Shown here one piece after another: positions 499-41,514 of a DNA stretch of 64,000 nt. Within the stretch, counting starts at the first letter, position 1, and each line of letters begins with the position of its first letter. Under the pieces are notes generated by a model. It ran no database searches. It was not told where the DNA came from and saw only the letters and a program-made list of their open reading frames with translations. Origin of the DNA: Dictyostelium discoideum (taxonomy: Eukaryota); NCBI GenBank assembly GCA_000004695.1, contig CM000155.2, positions 2,944,001-3,008,000 on the forward strand, given 5' to 3'. Made by a program: the position numbers and the translations under genes.

Positions 499-566
499 TT
501 TATATTTTATTAATATTAATTTATATATATTTTTTTATTATTATTATTATTATAAAATATTAAATT

Positions 567-608
<42 letters not shown>

Positions 609-609
609 A

Positions 610-654
<45 letters not shown>

Positions 655-1935: not shown

Positions 1936-2442
1936 ATTCAATTTTTTTTTTAATAGTAATAAATAATAATAATTAATAACTAATAATAATAATAATAATA
2001 ATATAATTTAGTGATAATACGATAAAACCCAAACAACAAAAAAAAAAAAAAAAAAGAACAAACTAGCATCACCCTTTTTTTTATAGTGCTAGAATATTAC
2101 ATGTAAAAAAAAAAAAGAAAAAAATAATAAAAAAAAATAATAAAAAAAAATATATATAATTTAAAAATAATATACTATTTTAATATAATTAATTTGAATC
2201 AAATTTATGAGAATTTTTGTTAACTTTTATTTATTTATTTATTTACACCAATAATCATAATAACAATAATAATAATAATAATAATAGACCATTTTTGGTT
2301 TTTGTACTTTTATTTATTATATACAATTAAATTCTTTACTTTGTTTTTTTTTTTTTTTTTTCATTATTTTTTTTCTTCTATAGTTATTAATTATGATACA
2401 AGTTAAATATGTGTATATATTTTAATTCTTTTTCACTAAAAA

Positions 2443-2748
2443 TTAGCCAAATGGGATAGTAATTGAAATATCATCACCAAATGCACCCCATTTATTTCTA
2501 TTTACTAAATAAATACCCATCCAACCCATGAAAATGGTTGAATATCCTAAAAATCCAATTAATGAGAATTTTAAATCTAAATAAATATAAAAAAAAAAAA
2601 AAAAAAAAAGATAAATTAGTTAATTAATATTTAAAATTTTTAATTTAATAATAATAATAAAATTATACATACACCATTTTACTTTATCATTCAAAGAATT
2701 TCTATATGGTATAAAATATAAAATGTTAATTAACCAAACCCAGGTAAG
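2443..2748 (-). CDS. 3'-terminal exons of a membrane protein gene (exon ..2748-2673, intron, exon 2576-2443); upstream part lost in the N gap
   Basis: Minus strand reads ...LTWVWLINILYFIPYRNSLNDKVKW, then a GTATGT donor, ~96-bp intron, TTTAG acceptor, then YLKFSLIGFLGYSTIFMGWMGIYLVNRNKWGAFGDDISITIPFG, stop. Hydrophobic helices present. Splice phases are consistent. Confidence 0.4.
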
Positions 2749-2848
2749 NNNNNNNNNNNNNNNNNNNNNNNNNNNNNNNNNNNNNNNNNNNNNNNNNNNN
2801 NNNNNNNNNNNNNNNNNNNNNNNNNNNNNNNNNNNNNNNNNNNNNNNN
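2749..2848. other. Assembly gap (100 N)
   Basis: Run of N. Confidence 1.
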
Positions 2849-3689
2849 CACTCGTTCAGATTTATCAAGAAGAAATCCAAACAATTCTCATGTCCTTGCC
2901 GCAAGATTGGATGACTATGGTAGATACCATTATCAACAAGAACCATTATATCAAGATAAAATGGCTAAAGAAGCCTTCAAATTGGCTAAAGCTGAAAAGA
3001 AGAATGAATACGTTGCCAATAAAGCAGTACTTCAAAAAGAAGGTCTCATTAGAGCTGTTGAAAGAAATGATAAACTTAATAAAACTCAAATTGCACCTGA
3101 AAGACCAATTTTCAAGAATGATACTATGGTTATTGAAGAACCAGTGCTTACAAATACAATTGTTTACGAAACAGTTCCAACTACTTCAACTTCACAAATT
3201 TTAATTCCACAAGAAACAATCATTACTGAAAATAAAACATTTGAACAACCAACTTTAGAGAAACAAACAACTACAACAACCACCACTACTACAACATCAT
3301 CATCATCTGAAGGTAGCTCAAATGTTGCCCCTCCACAAGAAACTTTTGTTCCACAATTAGAAAAGGATGAAGCTCCAATTTATAGAGAAGAAGTTGTTTT
3401 GGTTCCACACATTGAAGAGGATACTTTTGATTCTGGTAATCAACAATTAAGTTATTCTGAAATTACTCAAGTTCCAGTTCAAATGACAAGTAGTGAATTT
3501 GGTGGTGGTGGTGGCAACAATAGTGGTTCTTCAGGTAGAAAAGGTAAAAAAGGTAAAAAACAACAATATCGTAAAGAAATCATTACAAAACAATCAACTG
3601 ATGGTGGTAAATCTTGGACAAATGATTCAAACTTGGCTGGTGATAATGTTGAATTTATTCAAGAACAAACAACAATTAGAAATCAATAA
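2849..3689 (+). CDS. Hypothetical protein, 3' portion (frame open from the gap edge; ORF track 2907..3689 begins with a TTG artefact)
   Basis: Frame is open from 2849 (TRSDLSRRNPNNSHVLAARLDDYGRYHYQQEPLYQDKMAKEAFKLAKAEKK...) to TAA at 3689. There is a Thr-rich tract and a GGGGGNNSGSSGRKGKKGKK tract. No recognisable domain. Confidence 0.5.
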
Positions 3690-4129
3690 ATTATTATTTA
3701 ATAAAAATATTTAATAAAATTTTATTAATATTTTTTTAATTTAATAATTTTTTTATTTATTTTTATCATCTTTATTATTATTAAAAAAAAAAAATATCAA
3801 TAAAATAGTCAAAAGAAAATTGATATTTAAAAAAAATAAAAATAATCATTAATTTATATTATAACGAATTTATTAACTAATATCAATAATTCGTTTTAAT
3901 ATTAAAAATAAAAAATAAAAAAATATAAAAAAAAATTTAATTATTATAATAAAAAAAAAATTAATAAAGCTTGTATAATTTTAATAATTTGTAATTAATT
4001 TATTTATATTTAAAGTAGGTTATTGTTTATATAATTACTAGTTAACGGATATTAATTTTGTTTAATCTATTTGAATCTACTATACTATATCCATTTTGAT
4101 TTCTTATAAATCAAATAAAATAATTACTA

Positions 4130-4796
4130 AAAAAAAAAAGTAAAAAATCAGGTGAAAAAAAAAGAAAAAAAAAAAAAAAACCCATTTTTATCTAACCAAA
4201 ACCATTTCATTACAAGTCAAATTTGATAATCTTTTAAATATGACAATATTATTTTATTTGAAAAAAAAAAAAAAAAAAAAAAAAAATTCACCCAAAATCG
4301 AATTAAAAAAAAAAAAAAAAAAAATTCAAACCAAATACCAAAGATTTCCCACCCCTAATTCTTAAAAAAAAAAAAAAAATTTAAAAAAAATTTTAAAAAT
4401 AAAAAACCCCTTTTAACATAAGGAATTTAAAATATTTAAATAAAAAAAACTTCCCCAAACTTATAACCCCCAATTTGCTCGACAATAATTAATTAATTAA
4501 TTAATTAAAATTTTTTTTTTTAATTTTTTTTTTTTTAATAATTAAAAAATAAAAAAAAAAAAACCCTTTTTTTTTTTTTTTTTTTTTTTTTGAAGGGAAA
4601 AATTAAAAATGAAAATTTAAAAATCCCGGGAAAAAATTTAAAAAAAAAAAAAAAATTTCCTTCCAAAAAAAAAAAATTAAAAATAAAAAATTCTGGGGGG
4701 GGGGAAAAAAAAAAACCCCCAAATTTTAAAAAAAAAAAGGGCCCCAAAATTTTAAAAAAAAAAAAAATTTTTTTTTTTTTTAAAAAAACCATAAAT
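4130..4796. repeat. Homopolymer-rich low-complexity block (A/T/C/G runs) abutting a gap; probable low-quality or unplaced sequence
   Basis: Strings such as cccggg, gggggggg, aaaaacccc that are atypical even for Dictyostelium intergenic DNA. Lies directly 5' of gap 4797-4896 and the TRE ORF. Confidence 0.5.
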
Positions 4797-4896
4797 NNNN
4801 NNNNNNNNNNNNNNNNNNNNNNNNNNNNNNNNNNNNNNNNNNNNNNNNNNNNNNNNNNNNNNNNNNNNNNNNNNNNNNNNNNNNNNNNNNNNNNNN
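4797..4896. other. Assembly gap (100 N)
   Basis: Run of N. Confidence 1.
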
Positions 4897-6768
4897 CAAA
4901 AATTGAAATTAATGGTAGTACTACTATACCCTTTGAGATCAAAAGAGGAGTTAAACAAGGAGATCCACTATCACCCACCCTGTTCGTCCTTGTAATAGAG
5001 GCTTTAGCTAGAAAAATTTTACAAGATGACCGAATTACTGGCCTTCCTCTAAACAACAGCAACCACAGAGAGAAATTCCAAAGCTTTGCAGACGACTCGG
5101 CTTCAATGGTCCCAGACTCTCAACAACTTGAATTAGTACTACAACACTTCAATTCGTTTTGCAAAGCCACTTCCTCAAAACTAAACATCGACAAATCTTC
5201 ATCAATTCTTATAGGCAACCCAGACAATACCAACCAAAGAATTCCAATATCTACAAATCCAGAAAGATACTTGGGATACTTCTTCACAGGCAAAGGGATA
5301 ACAAGAAAAATGCCAGAAATATTAAACACAATAAGATCATCCTTAGTACTATGGAAAACCACTGACTCAACAATCAAAACCAAAACCAACATCCTCAAAG
5401 CATTCGCACTCTCTAAATTAACCTACTATTCATATGTAGAGAAATTTAAGGAAGAGGAATTAAACCAAATCAATAAATTAGTCGAATGGTTTTTATCGGC
5501 ACCAAACAACAAAAATGCTAGTGGATTTCAAGTTATTAATTTAATGAGAACCAAAAGAGCAAGATACCCACTAAAAGTAGGAGGCTGGAACATTTGGAAT
5601 ATAGAATTGAGACAACTGGCGCAGAAACTTTGGATCATAAACCAATTCATCCTAGCACTAGAAACCAAACAAACAAACTCATCTCATTACAAAAGCTGGG
5701 AATATCAGATCCAAAAAAACAAATTCACATCCAGATACCTAAAAGAAAACTTAGACGAATGGAACAAAATAAGAATAAAAAAAGCAATCTTCAACAATAA
5801 TCTCACATCCATAAAAAACGAAAATGGACAACCACTTTCACTGGCAGAATGGTATACCACAATTCAAGACCAAAATCCAACCATCCCTAAAACGGAATTC
5901 CAATCATCTCTAAACTTAAGAGGCTACAGCTATAATCAACTCTTCAACAACATACTGAAGATAAAAGACCATAAAACAAGAGACACAATGTTTAGATTCC
6001 ATGCCAGATGCCTTCCAATAAACTACCTTCACAACAAACAATGCCCACTCTGCAAAGAAGATATGAGCAAAGACCCATACGGTCACCTGTTCTTCTCATG
6101 CAAGAAAACAAAACAATTCATAAAAATAAATAAACTCAAAAATTTCATCTATATTACCACAGGCAAAGGTAAAAACTGGCACCATACAAGAATTAGGCAA
6201 AATAACAATTTCATTAATAGAATAACTCCAAAATTATCACCGACAGCCAAAAAAGATCAAGAAGTGAATGCAGATTACGCCAACCACAGATTCCACAAAG
6301 AATACTTTGAATGGAACTATAAAGCAATAGACTATGATCTAACCAGATCATTCGCATATAGAAACCTAATGGCCCTTATCCTCCACAACATTTGGATTTG
6401 GATTTGCAATCAAATATACAGTGAAGATCCTTTAACAGATGAATCACTATCATACAGCTCCCTTCTAAAGAAATGGCACAAATTGGCCACTCTAGAATAC
6501 ATCAAAAAAGCAAAAGATCTGAAAAACTTATCAGCAAAAGACCATAATAACTTCAAAGATCCTAAGATCCTTCTCACTTCAACGATCAAGCTAAGAAAAA
6601 CAAAAGCTAATTACTATTGTATTCCAGAATCATCTCTCCCAAATATTATATCTTTTGATCAATTCATATGATTAAAATAACCCTTCAGCTTAAATGATAA
6701 GCCTTTAAATAAATATTAAATAAAACTCGTATTAACACAGATGGACATATATCAATCTTGTTAATCCA

Positions 6769-6800
<32 letters not shown>
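4897..6800 (+). mobile_element. Non-LTR (LINE-like, tRNA-gene-associated TRE-type) retrotransposon, 3' portion with ORF2 RT/C-terminal region and poly(A) tail
   Basis: ORF 4897..6671 has RT motifs (GVKQGDPLSPTLF, FADD as the YxDD-type motif), a C-terminal Cys-rich CPLCKEDMSKDPYGHLFFSC motif, and a 3' UTR ending in a 27-nt A run at 6774-6800. The same sequence recurs as a rearranged fragment at 9821-10382. Confidence 0.85.
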
Positions 6801-7995
6801 TTGTATTAATAATTTCCAAGCCCTTAGAGATTTACCAATTTGATTTATTTTAAATGAATTAACAGGAAAGTGAATCGATGAAAACTCTCCAGGTGTTTCA
6901 TTTTGAGAAATCATTTAATTTAAAAAAAAAAAAAAATATAATTGTTGGGCTTGTTTTCATTCTTTTTAAAAATATCATTATTACTAAAATCACCCATAAA
7001 TACACCATATAAACCTTATTTTCTTTTAAATTTATATCGAGTTATCAATAATTGATCATTTTTTTAACGAGATCCATTTAGGTATGTTATTTTTAGAATT
7101 TTAAAAATTATTTTTTTTTAAAAAAAAAAAACCAAAACAATCATAATTTAATATTAAAACTTATAAATAAAAACACTAAAAACACAAAAATTATGAATAA
7201 AAATAAAAATAGAAAAAAACAAATATAGATTTAAAATTCCAGTAACCATGGTAATTTATTAACCCGGATTAAAATATTATAATTGGGGATATTACATTTG
7301 GAAAATCTAAAAATTAATACCATTTTGAAAATTTACAAAAAAAAAAAAATAAAAATAGAATTAATCCCTGGTATTAATAAATAATAAAAAATTAAAAAAT
7401 AAAAATAAAAAATAATATTTTTTTAAAATAATGGGGATCATTATTTTTTTAATAAAAAAAAAGTGATTACCAATTTTAAAGAAAGAAACCAGGTTAAATA
7501 AATAATTAGTTTTTTTATTATCAAAGTTGAAAAATCTAAAATGACATTGAAAAGATATTATGATCTGGCCTATCACTTTTAATAATTTACTAAAATAGAA
7601 GATATTTTTTAACATGCGGCATAGGTTATTATAAAATTACAAAATGTCAGTAGTGGGCACAAAAATGAATAAAATTTAAATAAAATTTAAATAAAATTAA
7701 AATAAAAAAAATTAAAAAAATCTTGAAAAAAAAAAAAAAGATATTTTTCAAAAATTATAGGAATAATGGCTTTTCAAAAATAATTAATATGGTTAAAATA
7801 TCTAATTTTTCATTTTTTTTTTATTTTTTATTTTTTTTTATTTTTATTTTTTTTTTTAGATTAAAAAATATCTGATTTTATTAATTTTGATTATTTTTAT
7901 TTTTATCCTGGTATTTCTTTTTTTTTTAAAATAAAAACAAAATTTTTTTTTTTTTTTATTTTTTAATATTATATTTATTTTTGTATTTGTAAAAA

Positions 7996-9079
7996 ATGAG
8001 ATTATTTCTTTTATTAATTACTTTTATTGCATTATTTGGTGCTATTAATGCATTTTCAGGTGTTGATATTTCACAAGGAAGTTCTGTAGGTGATTTCCAA
8101 TGTATGCTAAATCAAGGTTTTGAATTTGCAATCATTAGGTAATTATACAATTTATTAAAAAAAAATAAAACTTGTTTTAAAATATTTAAATATATTAATT
8201 TATAATTCAAAATTATAGAGGTTATATGGAAACTGGTCAAGTTGATCCAGAAGTTGTAAACAGTATTGCATGTGCACGTGAAGCTGGTGTCGAATATGTT
8301 GATACTTATCTTTTCCCATGTAAGAATGAAATTATTTTAATTTTAAACTTTATTTAAATGTGAATAATAAATTTATTTACAATTATTTTTTTAAAACATT
8401 TTCAGGTTTTAATTGTGGTAACCCACAAGATCAAGGTCCAGCTTTAGTATGTTTTGATTTTTTTATAATAATAATTATTTTATTTAGAAATATATATATA
8501 TTAAAAACCAATTCTAATATATAATTTAAAATTATTAATAGGTTAACTACTTAAGTGGATACAATGCTAACTATGGTATGGTATGGTTAGATATCGAATC
8601 ATCAGATTGGAGTGGTGATCAATCAGTATGTATCAATAATAGTAAACTTTAGAGTCTTTCATTTTTTTATTTAAACTACTAATATTAAAAATTTAATTTA
8701 AATAGGCAAATGTTGCATTTTTTGAAGGCTTAATTTCAGGTTTACAAAGTGTTGGTGCTCATATTGGTGTATACACCTCAGCTTCACAATGGATTCCAAT
8801 CATGGGTGGTTATACTGGTGGTTCCGAATTCCCACTTTGGGTAAGTTGTTTTTTTTTTTTTTTTAATTTTTTATTATTTTATTATAGATTTTATAGTATT
8901 ATTCGATATTAATAAAAACTCTTTCATTCAACAACAACAACAACAATTAGTATGCCAATTGGGATGGAGTACAAAGTTTTGATGATTTTTCAGCATTTGG
9001 TGGTTGGAGCACTCCAGCAATTAAACAATATAATGATGGTGGTAGCAACTGTGGTGTTGGTTATGATTTTAATTGGTGA
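7996..9079 (+). CDS. GH25 (Entamoeba/Chalaropsis-type) lysozyme with signal peptide; 6 exons: 7996..8138, 8219..8319, 8406..8446, 8542..8625, 8706..8840, 8951..9079
   Basis: MRLFLLLITFIALFGAINA signal peptide, then GVDISQGSSVGDFQCMLNQGFEFAIIRGYMETGQVD...VWLDIESSDW...GVYTSASQWIPIMGG...PLWYANWDG...GGWSTPAIKQYN, which fits the GH25 pattern. All junctions are GT..AG. Summed exon length is 633 nt (210 aa + stop) and in frame. Confidence 0.8.
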
Positions 9080-9775
9080 GTATTGAAAAAAAAAAAAAAA
9101 GATAAAAAAAAGATTAAAAATTTAAACAAATACTAACCATTTTATTATTCTAATTTGAAAACCAGGTATCCAAATTAATATTTTAATTTATATTTAATCA
9201 GATTGGTTAAAAATTTAAAATAAATATGTTAAATGGTTTTTATACAAGCATAAATATATTTTTTTATGTTTTAAATATCCTATTTTTAAAAAAAGATAAA
9301 TTGGTGGAATTATTATTGAACTTTTTTTTTTTTGTTGTTGTTGAGTAGTTTATGTTAACCTCATGATCCTTCTTTATATTTGGTGGGATTATAGGTTTAA
9401 TTCTTTTTTTTTTTTTTTTTTTTTTTATATTTGATCATTTTAATAAAAAAAAATTAATGCATTAATCAAATGATTTTTTTTTAAAGTTGATTGCAAATCC
9501 ATATCCATATCTGGTGAAATATCATTACTATCAAGTTTTTATATGAGAAATGTGATAATCTATAGCCTTGTAACACCATATGAAGTGAGGTTTATGAAAT
9601 CTTATATGAATGTAGTCAATGTTGATTTCATGGTCTTTCTTCATATTAGGAGGTATAATTGGTGTGATTTTGTTTGTTGTTTGTTGTTTATGATTGTTCC
9701 GCCTGTTAATTTGAAGATGAATCCTGTTAATTTGGTATTGTTAATATATGATTTGGGAGCACTTGTTCTGAAATA

Positions 9776-9777
<2 letters not shown>

Positions 9778-9823
<46 letters not shown>

Positions 9824-10418
9824 TGGATTAACAAGATTGATATATGTCCATCTGTGTTAATACGAGTTTTATTTAATATTTATTTAAAGGCTTATCATTT
9901 AAGCTGAAGGGTTATTTTAATCATATGAATTGATCAAAAGATATAATATTTGGGAGAGATGATTCTGGAATACAATAGTAATTAGCTGTTGTTTTTCTTA
10001 TCTTGATCGTTGAAGTGAGAAGGATCTTAGGATCTTTGAAGTTATTATGGTCTTTTGCTGATAAGTTTTTCAGATCTTTTGCTTTTTTGATGTATTCTAG
10101 AGTGGCCAATTTGTGCCATTTCTTTAGAAGGGAGCTGTATGATAGTGATTCATCTGTTAAAGGATCTTCACTGTATATTCAGAATTCCAATATCTACAAA
10201 TCCAGAAAGATACTTGGGATACTTCTTCACAGGCAAAGGGATAACAAGAAAAATACCAGAAATATTAAACACAATAAGATCATCCTTAGTACTATGGAAA
10301 ACCACTGACTCAACAATCAAAACCAAAACCAACATCCTCAAAGCATTCGCACTCTCTAAATTAACCTACTATTCATATGTAGTATATTGTATTTCAGAAC
10401 GGAAAAATATAACTTTGC
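9778..10418 (-). mobile_element. Rearranged 5'-truncated TRE retrotransposon fragment (inverted 3' end with poly(A) joined to a forward internal segment), inserted downstream of tRNA-Lys
   Basis: 9778-9818 is a 41-nt T run, which is poly(A) on the minus strand. 9821-10178 is the reverse complement of element positions 6415-6773. 10180-10382 is in forward orientation and matches 5222-5440. 10383-10400 is an inverted copy of the left-flank target GTTCTGAAATACAATATA. The second duplicate copy lacks all of this. Confidence 0.8.
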
Positions 10419-10488
10419 AGGTTAGTTTTCTTAATTTTATTATTTGTATGGTAAAGTCATTTGGGTCCTTTTACAATATCTTCATAGC

Positions 10489-10500
10489 CGGAGTCGAACA
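10489..10500 (-). promoter_or_regulatory. Downstream B-box-like element (ex-B box) of tRNA-Lys copy 1
   Basis: Minus-strand TGTTCGACTCC lies ~35 bp 3' of the tRNA end and matches the GGTTCGANTCC B-box consensus, as described for Dictyostelium tRNA genes. Confidence 0.6.
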
Positions 10501-10532
10501 TGCGATCTCAACTATACTCAGTAAAAATAATT

Positions 10533-10605
10533 CGCCCAACGGGGGGCTCGAACCCCCGACCACCAGATTAAGAGTCTGGCGCTCTACCGACTGAGCTAGC
10601 CGGGC
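10533..10605 (-). tRNA. tRNA-Lys (anticodon CUU)
   Basis: Minus strand reads GCCCGGCTAGCTCAGTCGGTAGAGCGCCAGACTCTTAATCTGGTGGTCGGGGGTTCGAGCCCCCCGTTGGGCG. This gives a cloverleaf with A box TAGCTCAGTCGG, a CTT anticodon loop, B box GGTTCGAGCC, and a T run just 3' of the gene. It is near-identical to metazoan tRNA-Lys-CTT. Confidence 0.92.
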
Positions 10606-11898
10606 ATTTTTATGAATTTTCAATTAAAATACTGGTATACGTAATAAATTTACTCCAATTGAAAAAAGATGAGTTTACAGGTGAAGCAATTTATTTTATC
10701 CAAAAAAAAAAGGTCAAATAATTATCAATTTAATACACAAAAAATAAATAGTTTATTGTTGTCTCTTTCTTTTGAAATTAATAAAATATTTTAATTTAAG
10801 AGTTTTTATTTCAGATTTTTTGTTCAATTGCACAGAACAGAGATTTAAAATTGTGGTGTGGCAAATAAAAAAAAAAATTATGAGAAAATAGATTATAATA
10901 GCTTTTATTAAATTACACTTATTTATACATTGATATTTAAATAGAAAATCGATTTAATTTTAATTTTATGAGAATAATAATTTCAAATAACTAATCCTCC
11001 ATTTGGTTTTTGAAAAACTTCTAAATGTACAGAGTTTGAAGTGGGCTGAGTATTTAAATTTACAACACTTTTTGATTGATCTTTTTTTGTATTGATAAAA
11101 CTTGTTGTTTTAACTGATTTATTTTTTGCCAAACAATCTAACAAATTTTTAAATCAATATGTTAGAAAATAAATAAAATAAATTTTTGAAAAAAATAACT
11201 TAATTAGTTTACACACATACCGTAAATCATTTTTTAATAAATTTTTTAAATAAATAAAAAAATAAATAAATTATATAAATAAAATAAAATATAATAAAAT
11301 AAAATAAATAATTAAAAAACTAGTTTAATAAATAAATATTTTTTAAAAAATAGATTAAAAAAATTGTAAATAAATTTTTAAAAAATGAATAAAAAAAAAA
11401 AACAGAAAATTGAATTTAAATATTTTATTCTTTTATTTTTGTATTTTTTTAATTTTATAATTTTTTTTAATTGTTTATTTTATAAAATAATGAAAATATT
11501 AATTTAATATCCATATTTGTACTTTAAGATTATTATTTATAAATCTTGTGATTTTGTTTATTTAAATAATTATTTCAAAGAATTATAATATGAGTTTTTA
11601 AAATTAAGGCAATTATAGTACACTTTTACATATAATTATACAATAAATATTTTAATTTTTTATTTTAAAAAAAAAAAATATTTAAAAATAAATTAAAAAA
11701 AAAAAATAACCACTCTTACTATTTGTTTTTATTATAATAATAATCGAATTTTATTAATTTTGTTTTTATTTTAATATTTTGCTCTATATTGAATTTCAAA
11801 TTCCATACGTCCTTCATTGTTTTTTTTTTTTTACACAGAATAATAACTGATTAAGATTTTTTTTGTTTATTATTTTTAAAAAAAAAAAAAAGAAACAA

Positions 11899-11998
11899 NN
11901 NNNNNNNNNNNNNNNNNNNNNNNNNNNNNNNNNNNNNNNNNNNNNNNNNNNNNNNNNNNNNNNNNNNNNNNNNNNNNNNNNNNNNNNNNNNNNNNNNN
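11899..11998. other. Assembly gap (100 N) between the two tandem duplicate copies
   Basis: Run of N. Confidence 1.
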
Positions 11999-12043
11999 AT
12001 ATTAATAAAAACTCTTTCATTCAACAACAACAACAACAATTAG

Positions 12044-12172
12044 TATGCCAATTGGGATGGAGTACAAAGTTTTGATGATTTTTCAGCATTTGGTGGTTGG
12101 AGCACTCCAGCAATTAAACAATATAATGATGGTGGTAGCAACTGTGGTGTTGGTTATGATTTTAATTGGTGA
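12044..12172 (+). pseudogene. Duplicated terminal exon (exon 6) of the GH25 lysozyme gene, with no upstream exons in this copy
   Basis: Identical acceptor context and coding sequence YANWDGVQSFDDFSAFGGWSTPAIKQYNDGGSNCGVGYDFNW, then stop. Exons 1-5 are absent before it (the gap precedes it). Confidence 0.6.
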
Positions 12173-12952
12173 GTATTGAAAAAAAAAAAAAAAGATAAAA
12201 AAAAGATTAAAAATTTAAACAAATACTAACCATTTTATTATTCTAATTTGAAAACCAGGTATCCAAATTAATATTTTAATTTATATTTAATCAGATTGGT
12301 TAAAAATTTAAAATAAATATGTTAAATGGTTTTTATACAAGCATAAATATATTTTTTTATGTTTTAAATATCCTATTTTTAAAAAAAGATAAATTGGTGG
12401 AATTATTATTGAACTTTTTTTTTTTTGTTGTTGTTGAGTAGTTTATGTTAACCTCATGATCCTTCTTTATATTTGGTGGGATTATAGGTTTAATTCTTTT
12501 TTTTTTTTTTTTTTTTTTTATATTTGATCATTTTAATAAAAAAAAATTAATGCATTAATCAAATGATTTTTTTTTAAAGTTGATTGCAAATCCATATCCA
12601 TATCTGGTGAAATATCATTACTATCAAGTTTTTATATGAGAAATGTGATAATCTATAGCCTTGTAACACCATATGAAGTGAGGTTTATGAAATCTTATAT
12701 GAATGTAGTCAATGTTGATTTCATGGTCTTTCTTCATATTAGGAGGTATAATTGGTGTGATTTTGTTTGTTGTTTGTTGTTTATGATTGTTCCGCCTGTT
12801 AATTTGAAGATGAATCCTGTTAATTTGGTATTGTTAATATATGATTTGGGAGCACTTGTTCTGAAATACAATATACTTTGCAGGTTAGTTTTCTTAATTT
12901 TATTATTTGTATGGTAAAGTCATTTGGGTCCTTTTACAATATCTTCATAGCC

Positions 12953-12963
12953 GGAGTCGAACA
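12953..12963 (-). promoter_or_regulatory. ex-B box of tRNA-Lys copy 2
   Basis: Same TGTTCGACTCC element as in copy 1. Confidence 0.6.
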
Positions 12964-12995
12964 TGCGATCTCAACTATACTCAGTAAAAATAATT

Positions 12996-13068
12996 CGCCC
13001 AACGGGGGGCTCGAACCCCCGACCACCAGATTAAGAGTCTGGCGCTCTACCGACTGAGCTAGCCGGGC
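12996..13068 (-). tRNA. tRNA-Lys (anticodon CUU), duplicate copy
   Basis: Sequence identical to 10533-10605. Confidence 0.92.
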
Positions 13069-14399
13069 ATTTTTATGAATTTTCAATTAAAATACTGGTA
13101 TACGTAATAAATTTACTCCAATTGAAAAAAGATGAGTTTACAGGTGAAGCAATTTATTTTATCCAAAAAAAAAAGGTCAAATAATTATCAATTTAATACA
13201 CAAAAAATAAATAGTTTATTGTTGTCTCTTTCTTTTGAAATTAATAAAATATTTTAATTTAAGAGTTTTTATTTCAGATTTTTTGTTCAATTGCACAGAA
13301 CAGAGATTTAAAATTGTGGTGTGGCAAATAAAAAAAAAAATTATGAGAAAATAGATTATAATAGCTTTTATTAAATTACACTTATTTATACATTGATATT
13401 TAAATAGAAAATCGATTTAATTTTAATTTTATGAGAATAATAATTTCAAATAACTAATCCTCCATTTGGTTTTTGAAAAACTTCTAAATGTACAGAGTTT
13501 GAAGTGGGCTGAGTATTTAAATTTACAACACTTTTTGATTGATCTTTTTTTGTATTGATAAAACTTGTTGTTTTAACTGATTTATTTTTTGCCAAACAAT
13601 CTAACAAATTTTTAAATCAATATGTTAGAAAATAAATAAAATAAATTTTTGAAAAAAATAACTTAATTAGTTTACACACATACCGTAAATCATTTTTTAA
13701 TAAATTTTTTAAATAAATAAAAAAATAAATAAATTATATAAATAAAATAAAATATAATAAAATAAAATAAATAATTAAAAAACTAGTTTAATAAATAAAT
13801 ATTTTTTAAAAAATAGATTAAAAAAATTGTAAATAAATTTTTAAAAAATGAATAAAAAAAAAAAACAGAAAATTGAATTTAAATATTTTATTCTTTTATT
13901 TTTGTATTTTTTTAATTTTATAATTTTTTTTAATTGTTTATTTTATAAAATAATGAAAATATTAATTTAATATCCATATTTGTACTTTAAGATTATTATT
14001 TATAAATCTTGTGATTTTGTTTATTTAAATAATTATTTCAAAGAATTATAATATGAGTTTTTAAAATTAAGGCAATTATAGTACACTTTTACATATAATT
14101 ATACAATAAATATTTTAATTTTTTATTTTAAAAAAAAAAAATATTTAAAAATAAATTAAAAAAAAAAAATAACCACTCTTACTATTTGTTTTTATTATAA
14201 TAATAATCGAATTTTATTAATTTTGTTTTTATTTTAATATTTTGCTCTATATTGAATTTCAAATTCCATACGTCCTTCATTGTTTTTTTTTTTTTACACA
14301 GAATAATAACTGATTAAGATTTTTTTTGTTTATTATTTTTAAAAAAAAAAAAAAGAAACAAGTGGAGATTAAATATATTTTGTGTATTAACACTTTTAA

Positions 14400-14490
14400 G
14401 TATCATTTTTAAAAAAAAAAAAAAAAAAAAAATTGTAAAAAAAAAAAGAATTTATTTTGTTTAGAAAAACTTTTTTTTGTTTAATTATTA

Positions 14491-14523
<33 letters not shown>

Positions 14524-15521
14524 TTAAATAATAAAAAGTGGTATTTAATAATATAACAATATCAAAAGGGAAAAAAAAAAAGAAAAAAAAAAATAAAAAA
14601 AAAAAAGGAATGACAAAAAAAAAAAAAATTGGTATATTTATTTTGAAAAATTAATTTAAATCTTGCAATTACTTATCTTGATAATCAAATAAAAAAAAAG
14701 AAATTGTACAAATTAATAATGGCAATCTAACTAATAAATAAAATTCCACCCCCCCCCCTCTCTCTCCTTACAAAAGGATGAATCAGGTTGAAGGGGGTAT
14801 TATTTTTATATACATTTTTTTTAACAATCAATGTACATATAAAAAAAAAAAAAAAAATTATTATTTTCATTTTCCAATTCTTAATTTTTTGTATTGAAAC
14901 AAATTAAAAATAAATTTTGAAAAATTGAATTACTGAATTAGCTTACTTTTTTTGGTGTTTACCACAAAAAAAAAAAAAAAAAAAAAAAATGAAAATTAAT
15001 TTTTTTTTTTGAATTTTTTTATATGACAATTATAATAATAAGTATTAATCATGAAAAAAAACACAACCTAAAATTAAAAAGGGGGTTCGGGTTTATTTTC
15101 ACAGCTTGGTACAGATTTAAAAAAAGGAAAATAAAAAAAAAAACAAAATAAAAAACCCCCCCTTCCAAAAAAATATTACCCCCCAAAAAACAACATATTT
15201 AAAAAATTTATGGTTTTAAAAATCATTAATTTTAATAATTTTTTTTTATCCATTTTTTATTAATTTTTTTTTTTAAAAAAAAAAAATATTTTTAAATTCC
15301 CTTTAAACAAGGAATAAAAAATCAAATCAAAAAAAAAAAATTTACCTACAACTTTTTAGGGAAAGTTTTTTTATAGAAATTAAATTTTTATAAAAAAAAA
15401 AAAATTAGGAAAATTAAGAATTTAAAAATAAAATACCATTTCAAAAAAATATTTTTAACTTTTTAATTATAAAAAAATATCAAAAAATGAATTTAATTGG
15501 AAAGTTTAATTACATTTTTTA

Positions 15522-15571
<50 letters not shown>

Positions 15572-15600
15572 ATATACTAACTTTTGTTTTTTAATTTTTT
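14400..15600. repeat. Homopolymer-rich low-complexity block with isolated C/G runs
   Basis: poly(A)/poly(T) runs interspersed with cccccccctctctctcc, gggggttcgggtt and similar. No coding potential. Confidence 0.5.
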
Positions 15601-15995
15601 TTTAAAAAAAAAGACTCTTTCAAAGATCTTAGTTTATCAAACGAAAATAAACAATTTTTAAATGTTAGAAATAATTCAAATAATGGATTTCACAATAATT
15701 TTACTTTAATAAAAAATCAAAACAATTCAGTTATTAGTAATAATCCAGTTATTGTTGTTTCTTTTATAAAATAATATTAAAATCAAGTAAAAAAAAAATA
15801 ATATATATGGAAATAGAAATGATTTTTAAAAAAAAATAATAATAATCAATATATATAGAAATAGAAATAATTAAAAAAAAAAAAAAAAAAAATAATGACA
15901 ATCCGAATCTAAAAAAAAAATGTTGTAAAAATAAAAATTAATTTATTTATTTATTTAAAAAATATAAACTTTTAATTAATTAATTAATTAATTAA

Positions 15996-16783
15996 TTATA
16001 AATATGGTTTTAATAAAATTAAATCTAATTGTGAAATTAAGTTATTTAAATTTTTTGGAGGTATACCTTTAAAATTATAACGAATTAATTTATCTTGATT
16101 TGATTGTAATCTTGATTTTATTCTTTTTACAATTTCTAAATTATGATGAATTGCATTTAAATTAATATCTATTGGATCATTTCTATTGTCTAATAGATAT
16201 AAGAATATTTCATCTCTTTTATGACGCAATGCTTGAATTGGTACTAATGATGAAATTGGATAAATATTCAACTCTGTTAAATATTGAACCAATGCTAAAC
16301 TATCACTTGTTACAGCATTCTCCATAATGAAATTATTATCAATTAATTTATTTAACCCTCCATCTACACCATTTTGATGAATAAATTTCATAAATTCTAA
16401 ATCACCCCTATTAGCAATGAATTCACCAACTAATTTATCATTCCAAAGGAAATTCTCTTTAAAATTATAATAAAGATATTTAAATAATTCAAAATTTTCA
16501 CATGCTAATCTAATACCATATTTATATAAAAAATCATTATTATTATTATTATTATTTGAATTATTACTATTTTTATTTATTGCTGTTGAATTTCTAATAA
16601 TCTTTTTTACAAATTCAAATTCTTTATATTTTAAAATATATTGAAATCCAATTCTAACTTTATCTTTTTCTTTTAAATTTTCTTTTATTCCTTTTTTATA
16701 TAAAAAATTAAAAATAAATAATTTTTTAATATCTTTGTCTTCCAATTCATTTAAATTATTTAAATTTAAAATTTTTAAAGTTG
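15996..16783 (-). CDS. Hypothetical protein with ankyrin-repeat-like segments; N-terminus may lie in the gap 16784-16883
   Basis: ORF 15996..16745, with the frame open up to the gap edge. Motifs GDLEFMKFIHQNGVDGG and ENAVTSDSLALVQYLTE resemble ankyrin repeats. Contains a poly-N tract. Confidence 0.5.
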
Positions 16784-16883
16784 NNNNNNNNNNNNNNNNN
16801 NNNNNNNNNNNNNNNNNNNNNNNNNNNNNNNNNNNNNNNNNNNNNNNNNNNNNNNNNNNNNNNNNNNNNNNNNNNNNNNNNNN
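16784..16883. other. Assembly gap (100 N)
   Basis: Run of N. Confidence 1.
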
Positions 16884-16924
<41 letters not shown>

Positions 16925-17149
16925 TAAATATTTTTTTGGTAAATTAAAAATAAATAAATAAATAAAATAAAAAATATTATTAAAAAAATAAAATATATCC
17001 ATTTATATTATTATTTTTATTTTTAATAAAAGTTTTTTGTTTTTCCAATATTTATTTATTATATTATATTATTATTATTATAAATATTTTTTTATTTTTA
17101 TTATTATTATTAATATTTTTTTATTTTTATAATTTTTATTATTAGGTGG

Positions 17150-17939
17150 TTAATCAAAAGAAACATAATATTTTTTAATTTCATAAGAAATTTCAGTTTC
17201 AGCCAAATAGAAAGGACTTGTTTTCAAATTTTTAAAATATTTTAGAATGATTTGGGTGAATTGTTTATAGCAATTGAATAGTTTATCAAGAATCATTTGA
17301 AAGATTTTCATACCATTTTTAAAGTTTGGAAATTGTTGAGTGACTATTACATTCATTTCTTCGATACCAGATCTCCAATTTTGATAAAATTGTTTCAATA
17401 TTTCTTCAAGTATTTCTTTCTTCAATTGTGGATGGTTAATTTCTTCCAACGTATATAAACCAATCAATGGATACAAATCTCTAACAGTTGTAATAACATT
17501 TTTAAAATATACAAATGAAACCAATTGTTCTAAACAATATTGTTCAGCTTCTTTTTCAAATAATAAAATCCAATAATCTTTATCTTCATTACCGCTACCA
17601 ATAAATTCATTTTCATTATTATTATTATTATCATTATTATTTTCATCATTTTTATTACTATTATTACCATTAATTTTATTATTATTATTATTATTATTTA
17701 CAATATTATTATTACTATTTAATTTATCAGTTAAAATTGTTAAAATTAAATCAAAATTATTTAATCTAAAAATTAATTTTGAAAGATGATTTGATTTTAA
17801 ATCATCAGATAGTCTATTAATTAATTTATACATTTCAACTCTCATTATTGCTAAATTTTCATTAATTATTGAATGTGATTCTTTAATATTAAATAATAAA
17901 TGATCATTATCCGTATTAATTAAATCATTATTATTATTG

Positions 17940-17980
<41 letters not shown>

Positions 17981-19780
17981 ATTATTAAAATTATATAAAA
18001 CTGAAAATGAACCAATTAATTCACTATATCTTCTAACAACATAATGAGGTCTATTTTCTTCAATTGGTGATAAATCTTTAACATTTGCATCTCTAATAGA
18101 TTGAATATTCTCTTCGAATAATATTGTTAATCTTGATAGAGTTGAATTAATAATGAATTGAAATAATCTATCAGTACAATCTGATTTGAATTGAATTTTA
18201 CTTCTATATTTACTAGTGATTGATAATATTAATAACAAAGCCACTATATCATAAGTTGATGCTAAATAACCATTTAAATTCTCCATAAATAATGATTCTG
18301 ATTTACAAAATAAAAAAGTAGAACTATCTTTATTTGATAGGAAATAATCCTTTAGAAACATATTTTCATATGATACTAAATCAATGATAAAGAATAACAA
18401 TGATCTGAATATAACTTCATAGGAATATTTTATAGAGTCAGAGGCAGAGGAAGATTCGAAATTGATAGATTGGGGTTTTAATGGTGGAGTTTCGAGTTCA
18501 TTTAAAATCTGATACCTAGTTTCAATGGTGTAAATGGATGATTTACACTTTAATTTATTACTTTTACTCGAGAAGAATCCCCTGGTTTTACTCTCGTGCA
18601 TACCAATTAAATCATTTCTTGATGTTGGTTCCATTTGAAGTTTCTCCAAGAATGTTATATAACTTCTATAATAGGATGAATAGATTCTTTCAGCAATCTC
18701 TTTATATTGATCGAATAGAATTCTAGCAACACGTCTAGTATGTTTATAGAGGAATATAAATGCTTGTCTGTATAGGGTGAATTCTTGTTGTTTCGATTGC
18801 AACGATTGTATATCCTTGATTTGGTTGAATTGTACCATGAAAAACCTATGAATCTTATCCAAAACCACGTTCAACAGTTTCAGTGTCACCTCTTCAATTT
18901 CACCCGTTGCAAAGACTCCATCGATCTTTTGTGACGATATGTGGCCTATCTTCTTACTGAATATTGAAAGATATTGAAGATACTGATCGTTAACCTCACC
19001 TTGTGTCAATAGGTGTATCAAATCATCCGATATCGAAACCTCCTCTATAATCTTATCCAATCGTTCCACCACCTTCTTCCTATTGACACATTTGGAATTC
19101 TGTGTAATCGATAACTCTTGTAAATTTCTCATTTCTTTTGAAATGTTTGTTAATTCACCTTGAAATTTACTTAACATATCTTCGAAACCACTCAATAGAT
19201 CAGTACTCTCTGTTATGGTTTTATAAAGTATTGCAAATGTTTCCCTCTCATTAACATAATCTGGTATAATATCTTGATAAAGTTCATTCATCTCCTTATC
19301 ACATCTCTCTAACGATTCACCAACTTCTTTTGAAAATTTACTTAAATCAATACCCTTATCCAAACAATTTGCTATAACTTGCTCATCCTTTGCATAGCGT
19401 TCAATTTGATTTTCAAAATCTTCCATACCCTCTCCCATTATATTGATTGTTGTTAAATCTAAATCAAATTTAAATTCCATATTGTCATCTTTTTCAATTT
19501 GTTCTTTATTATTTGTATTGTTACTATTATTTTGATTTTTAGATTTTTTTGAAATTTCTATTGATTGTAAACTATTTGATAATGAATTTGTATCATCATC
19601 ACTTATAAATTCATTATTTGTTGTTACTGCTTCATCTTCTTCGTGATGACGAAATCCTTTACTTGTACCATTTAATTCTTTATCAAATACTTCATCAAGA
19701 TTTGAACCTGTATTTTTATTATTTTTTAAATTATTATTATTATTATTTGTATTATTATTATTATTACTATTATTATTCAT
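17150..19780 (-). CDS. vps52: Vps52 (GARP complex subunit), single exon, 876 aa
   Basis: IYSSYYRSYITFLEKLQMEPTSRNDLIGMHESKTRGFFSSK and the N-terminal coiled-coil region align with metazoan VPS52 (IYLSYYRSYLGRLMKVQ...KKGFFSKPS). Poly-N tracts are typical of Dictyostelium. Confidence 0.85.
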
Positions 19781-20406
19781 ATTTTATATTTTTCACACTG
19801 AGTTGAAAATGTGAATTGCAAAAAATAAAAAAAATAAAAAAAAAAATAAAAAATTAAAAAATAAAAAAATAAAAAAAAAATCCAACAAAATTTTATTTTT
19901 TTATTATTAATAAAATATTTTCTATTTTTTCCATAAATTAATTTAAAATGAAAAAAAGTATTTAAATGAAAAAATAGAAAATATTTAATTAATAATAAAA
20001 AAATTATTCCCCTTACTTTTGGAGTTTATTTTTTTTTTTTTCCTTTTAAAGTAATCTATCAAAAATTTTATTATTAACCATAGTGATTTAAATTTTAAAT
20101 ACAACCTAAACAATATCTCCTAAATGGTGTGTATCTCCTTTCAATTTTTTTTTTTTTTTTTTGTTTATTTAACATTATTTTAAATAATTTCTTTGAATAA
20201 ATTCATCAAAATTTTGTGAGTTTGGAAAAAAAAAAAAAAAAATAAAAATAAAATAAAAAAAAAAAATAAAAAATAAAAAAAAAAGTGTGTTCATAAAATT
20301 TAATTTAAAAAAAAAAAAACAAATTTCAAAAAAAAAAAAAAAAAAAAAAAAACAACACACATAACACAAAAATACAAATAATTTTAAAAATATATATAAT
20401 ATAATA

Positions 20407-21415
20407 ATGAGTGATCATAGTGAAGCCATTGCAACATTTCAATCAATTACAGGTGCATCAAAAGAAGAATCTACATTTTATTTAGAGAGTCATGATTGGG
20501 ATTTAGAAGTAAGATTTTATTATTCTTAATTTTTTATCACTTTTTTATTTTTTTTTTTTTTTTTTATCCTAAATTATTTATTTTTTTTTTTTTTTAAAAA
20601 AATTAAAGAAAGCAGCACAAACTTTTACAACATTACAAGAAGAAGAAAATCAAAGAAATGATCAACCACAAATTGAAGAAGATTATGAAGATGAGGAAGA
20701 GGAAGATGATCATAGAGATCCAATGCCAGCATCAAGACCAGTATATAGTAAACCAGTTGCAAAAACTGTTAGTAAGAAAGCACCAGCAGGTGGTAGAGTA
20801 GGTGGTATTAGAACATTATCAGATTTCAATAATGATGATCATGATGATCATGATCATAGTGATGGTGATGATGATGAAGATGACAGATCTCAACAATATT
20901 TCACTGGTGGTGAAAAGAGTGGTTTGGTGGTTGAAAGTGCACCAAAGAAAGGTAAAAACGGTGGTAGTGGTGATATTGTAAACGATGTATTCGATAGTGC
21001 CAAAAGACATGGTGCTGTTGCATCCAATGAAAAGAAAGTTGAAAAACCAGATTCATTCGATAGTGTTGGTTATCAATTGGGTGCCACTGATCAAGGTAAT
21101 CGTAATGTAAGCAAACCAAAGGAAAAAGATCCAAATTCTCAAGTCGTAGAAGTTAAAGTCACCTTTTGGAATCAAGGTTTCACCATTGATGATGGTCCAC
21201 TTCGTAAGTATGATAATCCAGAGAATAAAGAATTACTCGATGATATTCAAAGGGGTATTGTACCACGTGAACTTCAAAAAAAAGCAACCACTCCAAATGG
21301 TTTATCTGTAACTTTGATAAATAATCATAATCAAGATTATGTTGAACCAGCAAAACCAAAATATGTTGCATTCTCTGGTGGTGGTCAAACTTTAGGTAGT
21401 TCTTCCACCTCAACA

Positions 21416-28529: not shown

Positions 28530-31733
<3,204 letters not shown>

Positions 31734-31895
31734 AAAAATAAAAAATAAAAAAATAAATAATTTATCAAAAAAAAAAAAAAAAAAAAAAATCAAGCGAAAT
31801 CAAAACACCACATTTTGTTTTTACCAAAAAAAAAAAAAAATCTATCGAGATTAATCACCATTTTCATTTAAATTTCAAAAATATCTTATTTTTTG

Positions 31896-31933
<38 letters not shown>

Positions 31934-32000
31934 AAATAATAAAAAAATAATTAAAAAAAAATTGAAAATAAAAAAAAAAGCAGCAAACAACCATTTGCTT

Positions 32001-32033
<33 letters not shown>

Positions 32034-32273: not shown

Positions 32274-32310
<37 letters not shown>

Positions 32311-41510: not shown

Positions 41511-41514
41511 TATA

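What the first reader, a model, noticed from the sequence alone, without database searches (positions are those of the whole stretch)
8906..14357. Tandem ~3-kb duplication forming a filled-site/empty-site pair for a TRE retrotransposon insertion
Two collinear copies, each with tRNA-Lys(CUU) and lysozyme exon 6, differ only in that copy 1 carries ~640 bp of TRE-derived sequence at a point where copy 2 reads GTTCTGAAATACAATATACTTTGCAGG uninterrupted. So either the insertion post-dates the duplication or the assembly has merged two alleles or repeats. A 100-N gap sits exactly at the copy boundary, so the copy number is uncertain. This gives an unusually direct look at the pre-insertion target next to a tRNA gene.
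Basis: seen in the sequence. Interest (0 to 1): 0.6.

Follow-up and report, generated by a model that had tools for sequence, protein, structure and literature searches.

The report
Unmerged contig overlap, not duplication
The apparent 3-kb tandem duplication in this Dictyostelium discoideum AX4 sequence is an assembly artefact: two contigs of one single-copy locus were left unmerged because one of them carries a 634-bp tRNA-targeted retrotransposon (TRE3-type) insertion that the other, and an independent long-read assembly of the sister lab strain, lack.

Summary
8906-11898 and 11999-14361 are collinear and 100% identical over 872 + 1487 bp. They differ only by 634 bp (9778-10411) versus ATAT, and they meet exactly at a 100-N run.

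The tandem-duplication reading is wrong. The window is D. discoideum AX4 chromosome 6. A gap-free de novo Nanopore contig with no substitutions against AX4 (AX2-214 by elimination) has one copy of the segment, one tRNA-Lys(CUU) and the empty site. The two AX4 contigs map onto it with a 2,363-bp overlap. Four wild strains are also single-copy.

The extra 634 bp has TRE3 hallmarks. A 41-nt poly(A) abuts the target, the insert lies 121 bp downstream of the tRNA in the tRNA's orientation, and it comes from a different family copy than the neighbouring element. Its tRNA-proximal end is abnormal: an inverted internal ORF2 fragment, an exact 20-nt inverted copy of the target, and no clean target-site duplication. 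It is either a subclonal or lineage-specific, twin-priming-like TRE3 insertion in the sequenced DNA, or a clone rearrangement.

The "empty" site lies inside an older TRE3 remnant. The whole block 4897-16783 is also misplaced in the scaffold. Interest is low.

The parts
4897..11898 (.). AX4 contig X1, bounded by N runs 4797-4896 and 11899-11998. It carries the filled allele.
   Evidence: N runs; 4897-9777 = L002 6902-11782 (2 mismatches, both within 25 bp of the contig end) and 10406-11898 = L002 11782-13273.
11899..11998 (.). 100-N scaffold gap placed between two contigs that in fact overlap.
   Evidence: That 100 N means 'gap of unknown size' is my own knowledge of the database convention.
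11999..16783 (.). AX4 contig X2. It carries the empty allele.
   Evidence: 11999-16783 = L002 10911-15689 in one continuous alignment; all 38 differences lie in 15082-15532.
8906..11898 (.). 'Copy 1': the part of X1 that overlaps X2 (L002 10911-13273) plus the 634-bp insert.
11999..14361 (.). 'Copy 2': the part of X2 that overlaps X1. It matches the single-copy sequence of AX2 exactly, including the empty site.
   Evidence: L002 11760-11800 is identical to window 12848-12888.
9778..10411 (-). 634-bp TRE3-derived insert, present only in X1.
9778..9818 (-). Poly(A) tail of the insert (41 T on the + strand), joined directly to target base 9777.
   Evidence: The neighbouring element E has only 27 A.
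9819..10179 (-). Sense 3' end of TRE3: ORF2 C-terminus (aa 1137-1221 of P0122) plus the 3' UTR. With the tail it corresponds to E 6413-6800.
10181..10382 (+). Internal TRE3 ORF2 fragment (E 5238-5439; aa 745-811 of P0122), inverted relative to the poly(A)-bearing piece. One orphan C (10180) lies between the pieces, and 973 nt of the element are missing between them.
10381..10400 (.). Exact 20-nt inverted copy of the target (AGTATATTGTATTTCAGAAC = reverse complement of 12858-12877). It spans the insertion point and overlaps the TRE fragment by 2 nt (AG).
10401..10411 (.). GGAAAAATATA: a degenerate direct copy of the target (GAAATACAATATA with indels). A possible remnant of a target-site duplication.
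Evidence: forward-target alignment.
12858..12877 (.). Uninterrupted target ('empty site'). The insertion point lies between 12870 and 12875.
10532..10606 (-). tRNA-Lys(CUU). The same single gene appears again at 12995-13069.
   Evidence: exactly one minus-strand tRNA-Lys downstream of the lysozyme gene in L001-L005.
10490..10499 (-). External B-box-like motif GTTCGACTCC downstream of the tRNA (again at 12953-12962).
   Evidence: The role of external B boxes in TRE3 targeting is from PMC5911963.
12577..12933 (-). Older degenerate TRE3-like ORF2 remnants. aa 1060-1137 at 12812-12577 (= 9719-9484 in X1) and aa 1184-1213 at 12933-12844. The second remnant contains the 'empty' site.
   Evidence: tblastn (E = 1e-16 and 4e-3 / 6e-4).
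7996..9178 (+). GH25 lysozyme gene with 7 exons. It equals AX4 'Probable GH family 25 lysozyme 4' (Q54BQ8). Exons 6-7 are repeated artefactually at 12044-12168 and 12259-12271.
4897..6800 (+). 3' part of element E, a 5'-truncated TRE3-type element. Its 5' part is at about 41550-42170, following tRNA-Lys(+) at 41395-41469.

Best explanation
The locus is single-copy. In the AX4 reference, two Sanger-era contigs (X1 = 4897-11898 and X2 = 11999-16783) cover the same stretch of chromosome 6: the end of the GH25 lysozyme gene, old TRE3 debris, tRNA-Lys(CUU) and 1.3 kb beyond it. They overlap by 2,363 bp. They disagree by a 634-bp indel, so they were not merged. They were laid end to end with a 100-N spacer, which creates a false tandem repeat whose boundaries are simply the contig ends. 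This part is shown.

The indel itself is most likely a real TRE3 retrotransposition product that was present in only part of the sequenced AX4 DNA, or that arose in the AX3/AX4 line after the split from NC4. This part is inferred, probability about 0.6-0.7. The proposed steps are:
1. The + strand is nicked after 9777.
2. A poly(A)-primed cDNA of the last ~350 nt plus tail is made.
3. A second, internally primed cDNA (element positions 5439 to 5238) is made in the opposite orientation, as in L1 twin priming.
4. That second cDNA starts from a 3' end that had first copied 20 nt of the target in inverted orientation.
5. The two cDNA ends are joined with one extra nucleotide.
For: (1). On the gap-free 2.2-Mb contig L002, X1 maps to 6902-11782 and 11782-13273, and X2 maps to 10911-15689. 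The end of 'copy 1' (…GAAACAA, 11898) is followed in L002 by GTGGAGATT, which is what follows 'copy 2' at 14362. The start of 'copy 2' (ATATTAATAAAAAC) is preceded in L002 by …AGTATTATTCG, which is what precedes copy 1 at 8906.

(2). L002 differs from the window only at contig ends, in homopolymer lengths and in one stretch (15082-15532), and nowhere else. It is therefore the same lab lineage. Of the three D. discoideum assemblies in PMC12745789, the paper says CR116C and OT3A are diverged from AX4, which leaves AX2-214. That assembly was de novo from Nanopore plus Illumina reads.

(3). L001 and L003-L005 each have one minus-strand tRNA-Lys and one copy of segments A and B.

(4) The two copies show 0 differences in 2,359 bp, and no junction sequence exists, only Ns.

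(5) Searches show independent signs of scaffolding trouble here: block 4897-16783 is out of order relative to five assemblies.

(6) Several features point to a genuine TPRT event:
- An A41 tail is joined directly to the target.
- The insert lies 121 bp from the tRNA 3' end, within the 40-150 bp window reported in PMC5911963.
- It has the same orientation as the tRNA.
- It lies downstream of an external B-box-like motif.
- Two of its three differences from the adjacent copy E are variants found in other genomic copies (P0112, P0113), so it is not built from reads of E.
- About 20% of L1 insertions show 5' inversions of this architecture (PMC12016303).
- By my estimate, a random chimeric junction would fall in such a window in the right orientation about 0.07% of the time (418 tRNA genes x 111 bp / 34 Mb / 2).
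Against: No AX4 reads were available, so AX4 copy number is inferred from a sister lab strain (AX2) and from wild strains, not measured. An AX4-specific duplication younger than the NC4 split is not formally excluded.

Against the insert being genuine:
- It appears in only one contig and is absent from AX2.
- It has no clean target-site duplication.
- It carries an inverted 20-nt target copy, which canonical twin priming does not predict.
- 973 nt separate the two element pieces, a larger gap than is typical for L1.
- Coverage in these small contigs looks thin.
- AT-rich Dictyostelium inserts are prone to rearrangement in E. coli (my own knowledge).

Searches for independent data holding either allele found nothing.
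Confidence: 0.93

Rival explanations
1. A real tandem duplication specific to AX4 (or AX3/AX4) arose after the split from the AX2 lineage. A TRE3 element then inserted into the left copy, and the duplication junction happens to lie in the unsequenced gap.
For: The assembly as given shows two copies in tandem. Duplications are common in lab stocks and some end near tRNA/TRE3 clusters, but those reported are 15 kb or larger (PMC2643946). A contig break inside a true tandem repeat would look the same in the sequence alone.
Against: AX2 has no substitutions against AX4 here and is single-copy and empty, as are four wild strains. This reading needs two rare events (duplication, then insertion) within a few decades of culture. 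There is zero divergence and no junction sequence. The surrounding scaffold is demonstrably misordered.
Confidence: 0.04
2. The locus is single-copy and empty in all AX4 cells. The 634-bp insert in X1 is a cloning or assembly chimera, such as a rearranged or co-ligated plasmid insert or a mis-join of TRE3 reads, and not a retrotransposition event in Dictyostelium.
For: The insert is composite: two TRE3 pieces in opposite orientation, an orphan base, an inverted 20-nt target copy, and a degenerate flank with three indels. It is absent from AX2 and from the other AX4 contig. The same contigs show low-quality stretches.
Against: Both outer junctions are locus-specific. The poly(A)-target junction sits at the canonical TRE3 distance and orientation relative to the tRNA (PMC5911963), which ligation chimeras would hit only by rare chance. 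The internal junction is not at a shared repeat where an assembler would mis-join. The TRE pieces carry family variants and a tail length different from the nearby copy.
Confidence: 0.3
3. X1 and X2 come from two dispersed copies of a segment of 9 kb or more in AX4 (a non-tandem segmental duplication), one filled and one empty. This could also explain why the block sits in an unexpected place.
For: Block 4897-16783 is not where five other assemblies have it.
Against: X1 starts inside TRE element E exactly where contig Y (…42170) breaks off, 507 bp apart on AX2. This fits one locus broken at a repeat. No second copy of any other part of the block is present. X1 and X2 together tile the AX2 sequence once.
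Confidence: 0.03

Closest known systems
False duplications from unmerged contig ends in draft or scaffolded assemblies (haplotig-like redundancy at gaps)
   Same: The identical sequence appears on both sides of an N gap. The repeat boundaries coincide exactly with the contig ends. The two versions differ by one structural variant that blocked merging. An independent long-read assembly collapses them to one copy.
   Different: The organism is haploid, so the two versions are not haplotypes. They must reflect heterogeneity among the sequenced cells or DNA preparations, or a clone artefact.
TRE3 (tRNA-gene-targeted non-LTR retroelements of D. discoideum that integrate 3' of tRNA genes)
   Same: Both the insert and element E lie downstream of a tRNA-Lys gene (121 bp and 80 bp) in the tRNA's orientation. 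Both end in poly(A), are 5'-truncated, and encode RT plus a C-terminal Cys/His motif.
   Different: The subfamily (A-D) could not be assigned. The insert has a 5' inversion and an inverted target copy, which the TRE papers I read do not describe.
L1 5' inversion by twin priming (Ostertag & Kazazian 2001; reviewed in PMC12016303)
   Same: There is a poly(A)-primed sense 3' segment plus an inverted segment from further upstream in the element. The pieces are joined with minimal filler, and there is a 2-nt microhomology at the internal priming site.
   Different: The primer of the inverted cDNA carries +-strand target sequence (a 20-nt inverted target copy) instead of the expected opposite-strand overhang. 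There is a 973-nt gap between the two cDNAs. The target-site duplication is degenerate.

Membership tests
Tandem segmental duplication | Two copies are present in the genome, not only in one assembly. | tested here: not met
   There is a single copy in AX2 (no substitutions against AX4) and in four other strains. AX4 itself was not measurable without reads.
Tandem segmental duplication | A sequenced junction joins the end of copy 1 to the start of copy 2. | tested here: not met
   The junction consists only of 100 N (11899-11998). Both copies stop exactly at the contig ends.
Tandem segmental duplication | The outer boundaries are independent of contig boundaries. | tested here: not met
   The start of copy 2 is the start of contig X2 and the end of copy 1 is the end of contig X1. 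8906 and 14361 are just the projections of those ends onto the other contig.
TRE3 non-LTR retrotransposon | Integration 40-150 bp (about 100 bp) downstream of a tRNA gene (PMC5911963, PMC5006619). | tested here: met
   The insert boundary at 10411 is 121 bp from the tRNA 3' end at 10532. E starts about 80 bp after tRNA-Lys(+) in L002.
TRE3 non-LTR retrotransposon | Same transcriptional orientation as the tRNA gene (PMC5911963). | tested here: met
   The poly(A)-bearing piece and the tRNA are both on the minus strand. E and tRNA-Lys(+) are both on the plus strand. The inverted internal piece is the exception.
TRE3 non-LTR retrotransposon | Ends in a poly(A)/oligo(A) tail. | tested here: met
   A41 for the insert and A27 for E.
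TRE3 non-LTR retrotransposon | ORF2 with APE, RT and zinc-finger domains. | tested here: inconclusive
   RVT_1 is found (E = 2e-10 in the E fragment; 1.9e-33 in the full-length family member P0122). The C-terminal CPLCKEDMSKDPYGHLFFSC Cys/His motif is seen directly. No APE domain was detected by Pfam in P0122.
TRE3 non-LTR retrotransposon | ORF2 clusters phylogenetically with reference TRE3-A/B/C/D sequences. | not testable with these tools
   No named TRE3 reference sequences were reachable. Database names are 'hypothetical protein', and the supplement search found nothing.
Twin-priming (5'-inverted) non-LTR insertion | A sense 3' segment with poly(A) plus an inverted segment from upstream in the element. 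| tested here: met
   Element positions 6413-6800 are sense and 5238-5439 are inverted.
Twin-priming (5'-inverted) non-LTR insertion | A direct target-site duplication flanks the whole insertion. | tested here: inconclusive
   Only a degenerate direct copy is present (GGAAAAATATA versus GAAATACAATATA). An exact inverted 20-nt target copy is found instead.

The most novel reading that the evidence does not exclude
Contig X1 preserves a very recent TRE3 retrotransposition, after the NC4 split and possibly subclonal in the culture used for the genome project, while contig X2 preserves the matching pre-insertion allele. That would be sequence-level evidence that TRE3 elements are still mobile in lab strains. 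It would also show that an amoebozoan L1-like element can make twin-priming-type 5' inversions, here with an unusual snap-back copy of 20 nt of target DNA before the reverse transcriptase switched to an internal site of the element RNA.
Probability: 0.5. Interest if true: 0.35.

Novelty: not a real feature. Interest (0 to 1): 0.12.

Why it matters
The main value is as a correction. Anyone using this part of the AX4 chromosome 6 reference would count one tRNA-Lys(CUU) gene, one set of lysozyme exons 6-7 and about 2.4 kb of sequence twice. They would also place a roughly 12-kb block about 25 kb from where long-read assemblies put it.

The biology underneath is ordinary for Dictyostelium. A tRNA gene's downstream flank has been hit repeatedly by TRE3 elements, and occupancy differs between strains. 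The one mildly interesting residue is the 634-bp allele. If real, it is a fresh TRE3 event with an L1-like 5' inversion, and it can be checked cheaply by PCR.

Tried and rejected
1. **Hairpin or palindrome at the tRNA-proximal junction.** DNA folding of 10376-10425 gave -2.0 kcal/mol and z = -0.21, which is not significant. I dropped the idea that the junction as sequenced is a stable palindrome. A perfect palindrome degraded by base-calling errors remains speculation.

2. **Independent evidence for either allele in public read assemblies.** Exact look-ups of ORFs spanning the filled junction (10139-10594) and the empty site (12636-12917) found nothing. The empty-site ORF certainly exists in AX2, so this test was uninformative. 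A similarity search with the 93-aa empty-site ORF also found nothing.

3. **Naming the TRE3 subfamily.** Protein database names were all 'hypothetical' or 'reverse transcriptase domain-containing', and a supplement search of PMC5006619 found nothing.

4. **AX4 genome paper.** PMC1352341, which might describe assembly and gap conventions, is not held.

5. **Mapping L002's accession to a strain name.** No supplement text is held, so the identity as AX2-214 rests on elimination.

6. **Placing the window's right-hand block (42271-64000) on the AX2 contig.** Both gene look-ups failed.

7. **Insert assembled from reads of the neighbouring element E.** Rejected, because the insert has 3 substitutions against E, two of which match other genomic copies, and a different tail length.

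8. **Nucleotide-level BLAST for old TRE remnants.** It was swamped by poly(A) hits, so protein-level tblastn was used instead.

Full report
**1. What is in the sequence**

The window is 22% GC and intron-bearing. It has five runs of exactly 100 N: 2749-2848, 4797-4896, 11899-11998, 16784-16883 and 42171-42270.

Segment 8906-9777 is identical to 11999-12870 (872 bp). Segment 10412-11898 is identical to 12875-14361 (1,487 bp). Between them, copy 1 has 634 bp (9778-10411) and copy 2 has ATAT. Copy 1 ends at the last base before the N run, and copy 2 begins at the first base after it.

ARAGORN finds tRNA-Lys(CTT) on the minus strand at 10532-10606 and 12995-13069, and a third on the plus strand at 41395-41469.

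A seven-exon GH25 lysozyme gene (7996-9178) ends inside copy 1. Its exons 6 and 7 recur in copy 2 (Pfam Glyco_hydro_25).

**2. Where the window comes from**

The spliced lysozyme protein is residue-for-residue D. discoideum AX4 'Probable GH family 25 lysozyme 4' (Q54BQ8 / XP_629111.1), on a record of 3,602,379 bp. That is the length of AX4 chromosome 6 (PMC2643946).

**3. Independent assemblies show one copy**

The 90% cluster of the lysozyme contains orthologues from new long-read assemblies. I fetched five loci with 10-kb flanks. None contains any N.

Each locus has exactly one minus-strand tRNA-Lys downstream of the lysozyme gene and one plus-strand tRNA-Lys upstream.

L002 (GCA_054883475.1, a 2.2-Mb contig) matches as follows:
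- Window 4897-9777 aligns to L002 6902-11782, with 2 mismatches, both within 25 bp of the contig end.
- Window 10406-11898 aligns to L002 11782-13273.
- Window 11999-16783 aligns as one block to L002 10911-15689.

So the two AX4 contigs tile a single sequence with a 2,363-bp overlap. L002 reads GGGAGCACTTGTTCTGAAATACAATATACTTTGCAGGTTAG, which is the empty configuration. …GAAACAA is followed directly by GTGGAGATT, so no second copy follows.

All differences between the window and L002 are at contig ends, in homopolymer lengths, or in one stretch at 15082-15532. Everywhere else there are no substitutions. L002 is therefore the same laboratory lineage.

The assemblies come from Holland et al. 2025 (PMC12745789). 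They are de novo Nanopore plus Illumina assemblies that include AX2-214. That paper says the other D. discoideum isolates are diverged from AX4, so L002 is AX2-214 by elimination.

The wild strains L001 and L003-L005 also carry segments A and B once.

Conclusion: the 'tandem duplication' is an unmerged contig overlap. In sequence alone, a contig break inside a true tandem repeat would look the same. The outside assemblies are what decide it.

**4. The 634-bp difference**

Elsewhere in the window, 4897-6800 is the 3' part of a non-LTR element, which I call E. It has an RT tail (RVT_1), the motif CPLCKEDMSKDPYGHLFFSC, a stop codon, a 3' UTR and A27.

Read on the minus strand, which is the tRNA's strand, the insert has these parts in order:
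- A degenerate direct target copy (10411-10401).
- An exact 20-nt inverted copy of the target (10400-10381, the reverse complement of 12858-12877). It spans the insertion point and shares AG with the next piece.
- An inverted ORF2 fragment (E 5439 to 5238).
- One orphan base.
- The sense 3' end (E 6413 to the tail).
- A41.
- The target, continuing at 9777.

Between the two element pieces, 973 nt are absent.

The insert differs from E at three positions. 5312 G>A gives ITRKIPEIL, as in copy P0113. 6604 A>C gives RKTTANYY, as in P0112 and P0113. 6591 C>A is private to the insert. Its tail is also 14 nt longer. So the insert derives from another family member, not from reads of E.

**5. Is it TRE3, and is it real?**

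The literature criteria for TRE3 are integration 40-150 bp downstream of a tRNA gene, in the same orientation, often keyed to an external B box, with a poly(A) tail and an APE-RT-ZF ORF2 (PMC5911963, PMC5006619).

The insert boundary is 121 bp from the tRNA 3' end. The poly(A)-bearing piece has the tRNA's orientation. A GTTCGACTCC motif lies at 10490-10499.

E starts about 80 bp after the plus-strand tRNA-Lys, past a GTTCGATTC motif.

RT is confirmed, but an APE domain was not detected by Pfam in the full-length relative P0122. The subfamily could not be named.

The canonical left junction argues for a true target-primed reverse transcription event. The opposite-orientation upstream fragment is the architecture attributed to twin priming in about 20% of L1 insertions (PMC12016303). 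The inverted target copy, the large internal gap and the missing clean target-site duplication are not canonical.

The allele is absent from AX2 and from contig X2. I rate a genuine insertion (subclonal or AX3/AX4-specific) at about 0.6-0.7 and a clone or assembly rearrangement at about 0.3. Attempts to find either allele in other public data failed.

**6. The 'empty site' is not virgin target**

tblastn with TRE3 ORF2 shows degenerate remnants on the minus strand. One is at 12812-12577 (aa 1060-1137, 46-64% identity). Another is at 12933-12844 (aa 1184-1213), and this one contains the site.

L001, L003 and L004 carry different remnants at the same tRNA, and L005 has none. Downstream of the other tRNA-Lys, AX2/AX4 carry E, L004 carries a different TRE-like insertion about 140 bp from the tRNA, and the other strains lack both.

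Natural filled/empty comparisons for TRE3 are therefore already available between strains.

**7. Context: the scaffold is misordered here**

On the AX2 contig the order is as follows:
- W, which is not in the window.
- Window 16884-42164.
- 507 bp of TRE3 ORF2 that is missing from the window.
- Window 4897-16783.
- Z, which is not in the window.

L003-L005 agree with this order for the parts they cover. Element E is thus split between the contig ending at 42170 and the contig starting at 4897. Block 4897-16783 belongs in the 42171-42270 gap. All three discordant junctions in the window are N runs.

**8. Verdict**

The duplication is not a real feature (confidence 0.93). The underlying biology is a known kind: TRE3 insertions recurring downstream of a tRNA gene. 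The residual interest lies only in the possibility that X1 captured a fresh, 5'-inverted TRE3 event. Interest 0.12.

Noticed in passing
window 4897-16783 versus 42171-42270; L002 1-15689; L006: Block 4897-16783 (two contigs) is out of place. In AX2, and collinearly in three wild strains, it follows window 42164 after 507 bp. The sequences that flank the Y+X region in AX2 (L006 12898-22631 and L002 15690-21084) are absent from the 64-kb window. All three discordant joins in the window are 100-N runs.
   Followed up: partly
window 41395-42170 and 4897-6800: One 5'-truncated TRE3-type element of about 3.0 kb (L002 5783-8805), lying 80 bp downstream of tRNA-Lys(+), is split between two contigs of the scaffold. 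507 bp of its ORF2 are missing from the window.
   Followed up: yes
window 15082-15532; also 4100-4796 and 42121-42170: These stretches have odd C/G substitutions inside A/T runs. 15082-15532 has 32 substitutions and a 6-nt indel against AX2, with none elsewhere in that contig. This looks like low-quality single-read sequence retained in the reference. 4100-4796 looks similar but has no AX2 counterpart among the loci I fetched.
   Followed up: partly
L001 (D. cf. discoideum) 229-3489 and 16906-20644 versus window 10870-16783 and 37675-41109: In L001, the segment between the two convergent tRNA-Lys(CUU) genes (lysozyme included) is inverted relative to both flanks, compared with AX4/AX2 and L003-L005. 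The breakpoints fall within a few hundred bp upstream of each tRNA gene. L001 also carries a DDE_1/HTH_Tnp_Tc5 transposase gene nearby (4456-6329).
   Followed up: no
L004 8517-8851; L001 14889-15436; L003 11785-11919; L004 11768-11914; nothing in L005: TRE3-like occupancy downstream of both tRNA-Lys genes differs from strain to strain, with different fragments at different distances. This points to repeated independent hits on the same two tRNA genes.
   Followed up: partly
window 6801-6950 (L002 8806-8955): Immediately after the tail of element E lies a 150-bp sequence ending in A15, followed by ATATAATTGT, which resembles the sequence just before E's 5' end. It is probably an older, very short TRE 3' fragment that E landed next to.
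   Followed up: no
window 29495-33612 and 52590-52754; 62198-62447 versus 63192-63441: There is a large family of 9-15-nt-periodic direct repeats inside long ORFs (probably homopolymeric or simple amino-acid tracts). There is also an 88%-identical 250-bp direct repeat about 1 kb apart near the right end of the window.
   Followed up: no
window 9166-9178; P0001 and P0105-P0110: The new long-read annotations model the lysozyme as 210 aa, whereas the AX4 model, and my splice model with a 13-bp terminal exon, give 213 aa. This is probably a difference in calling the last micro-exon.
   Followed up: no
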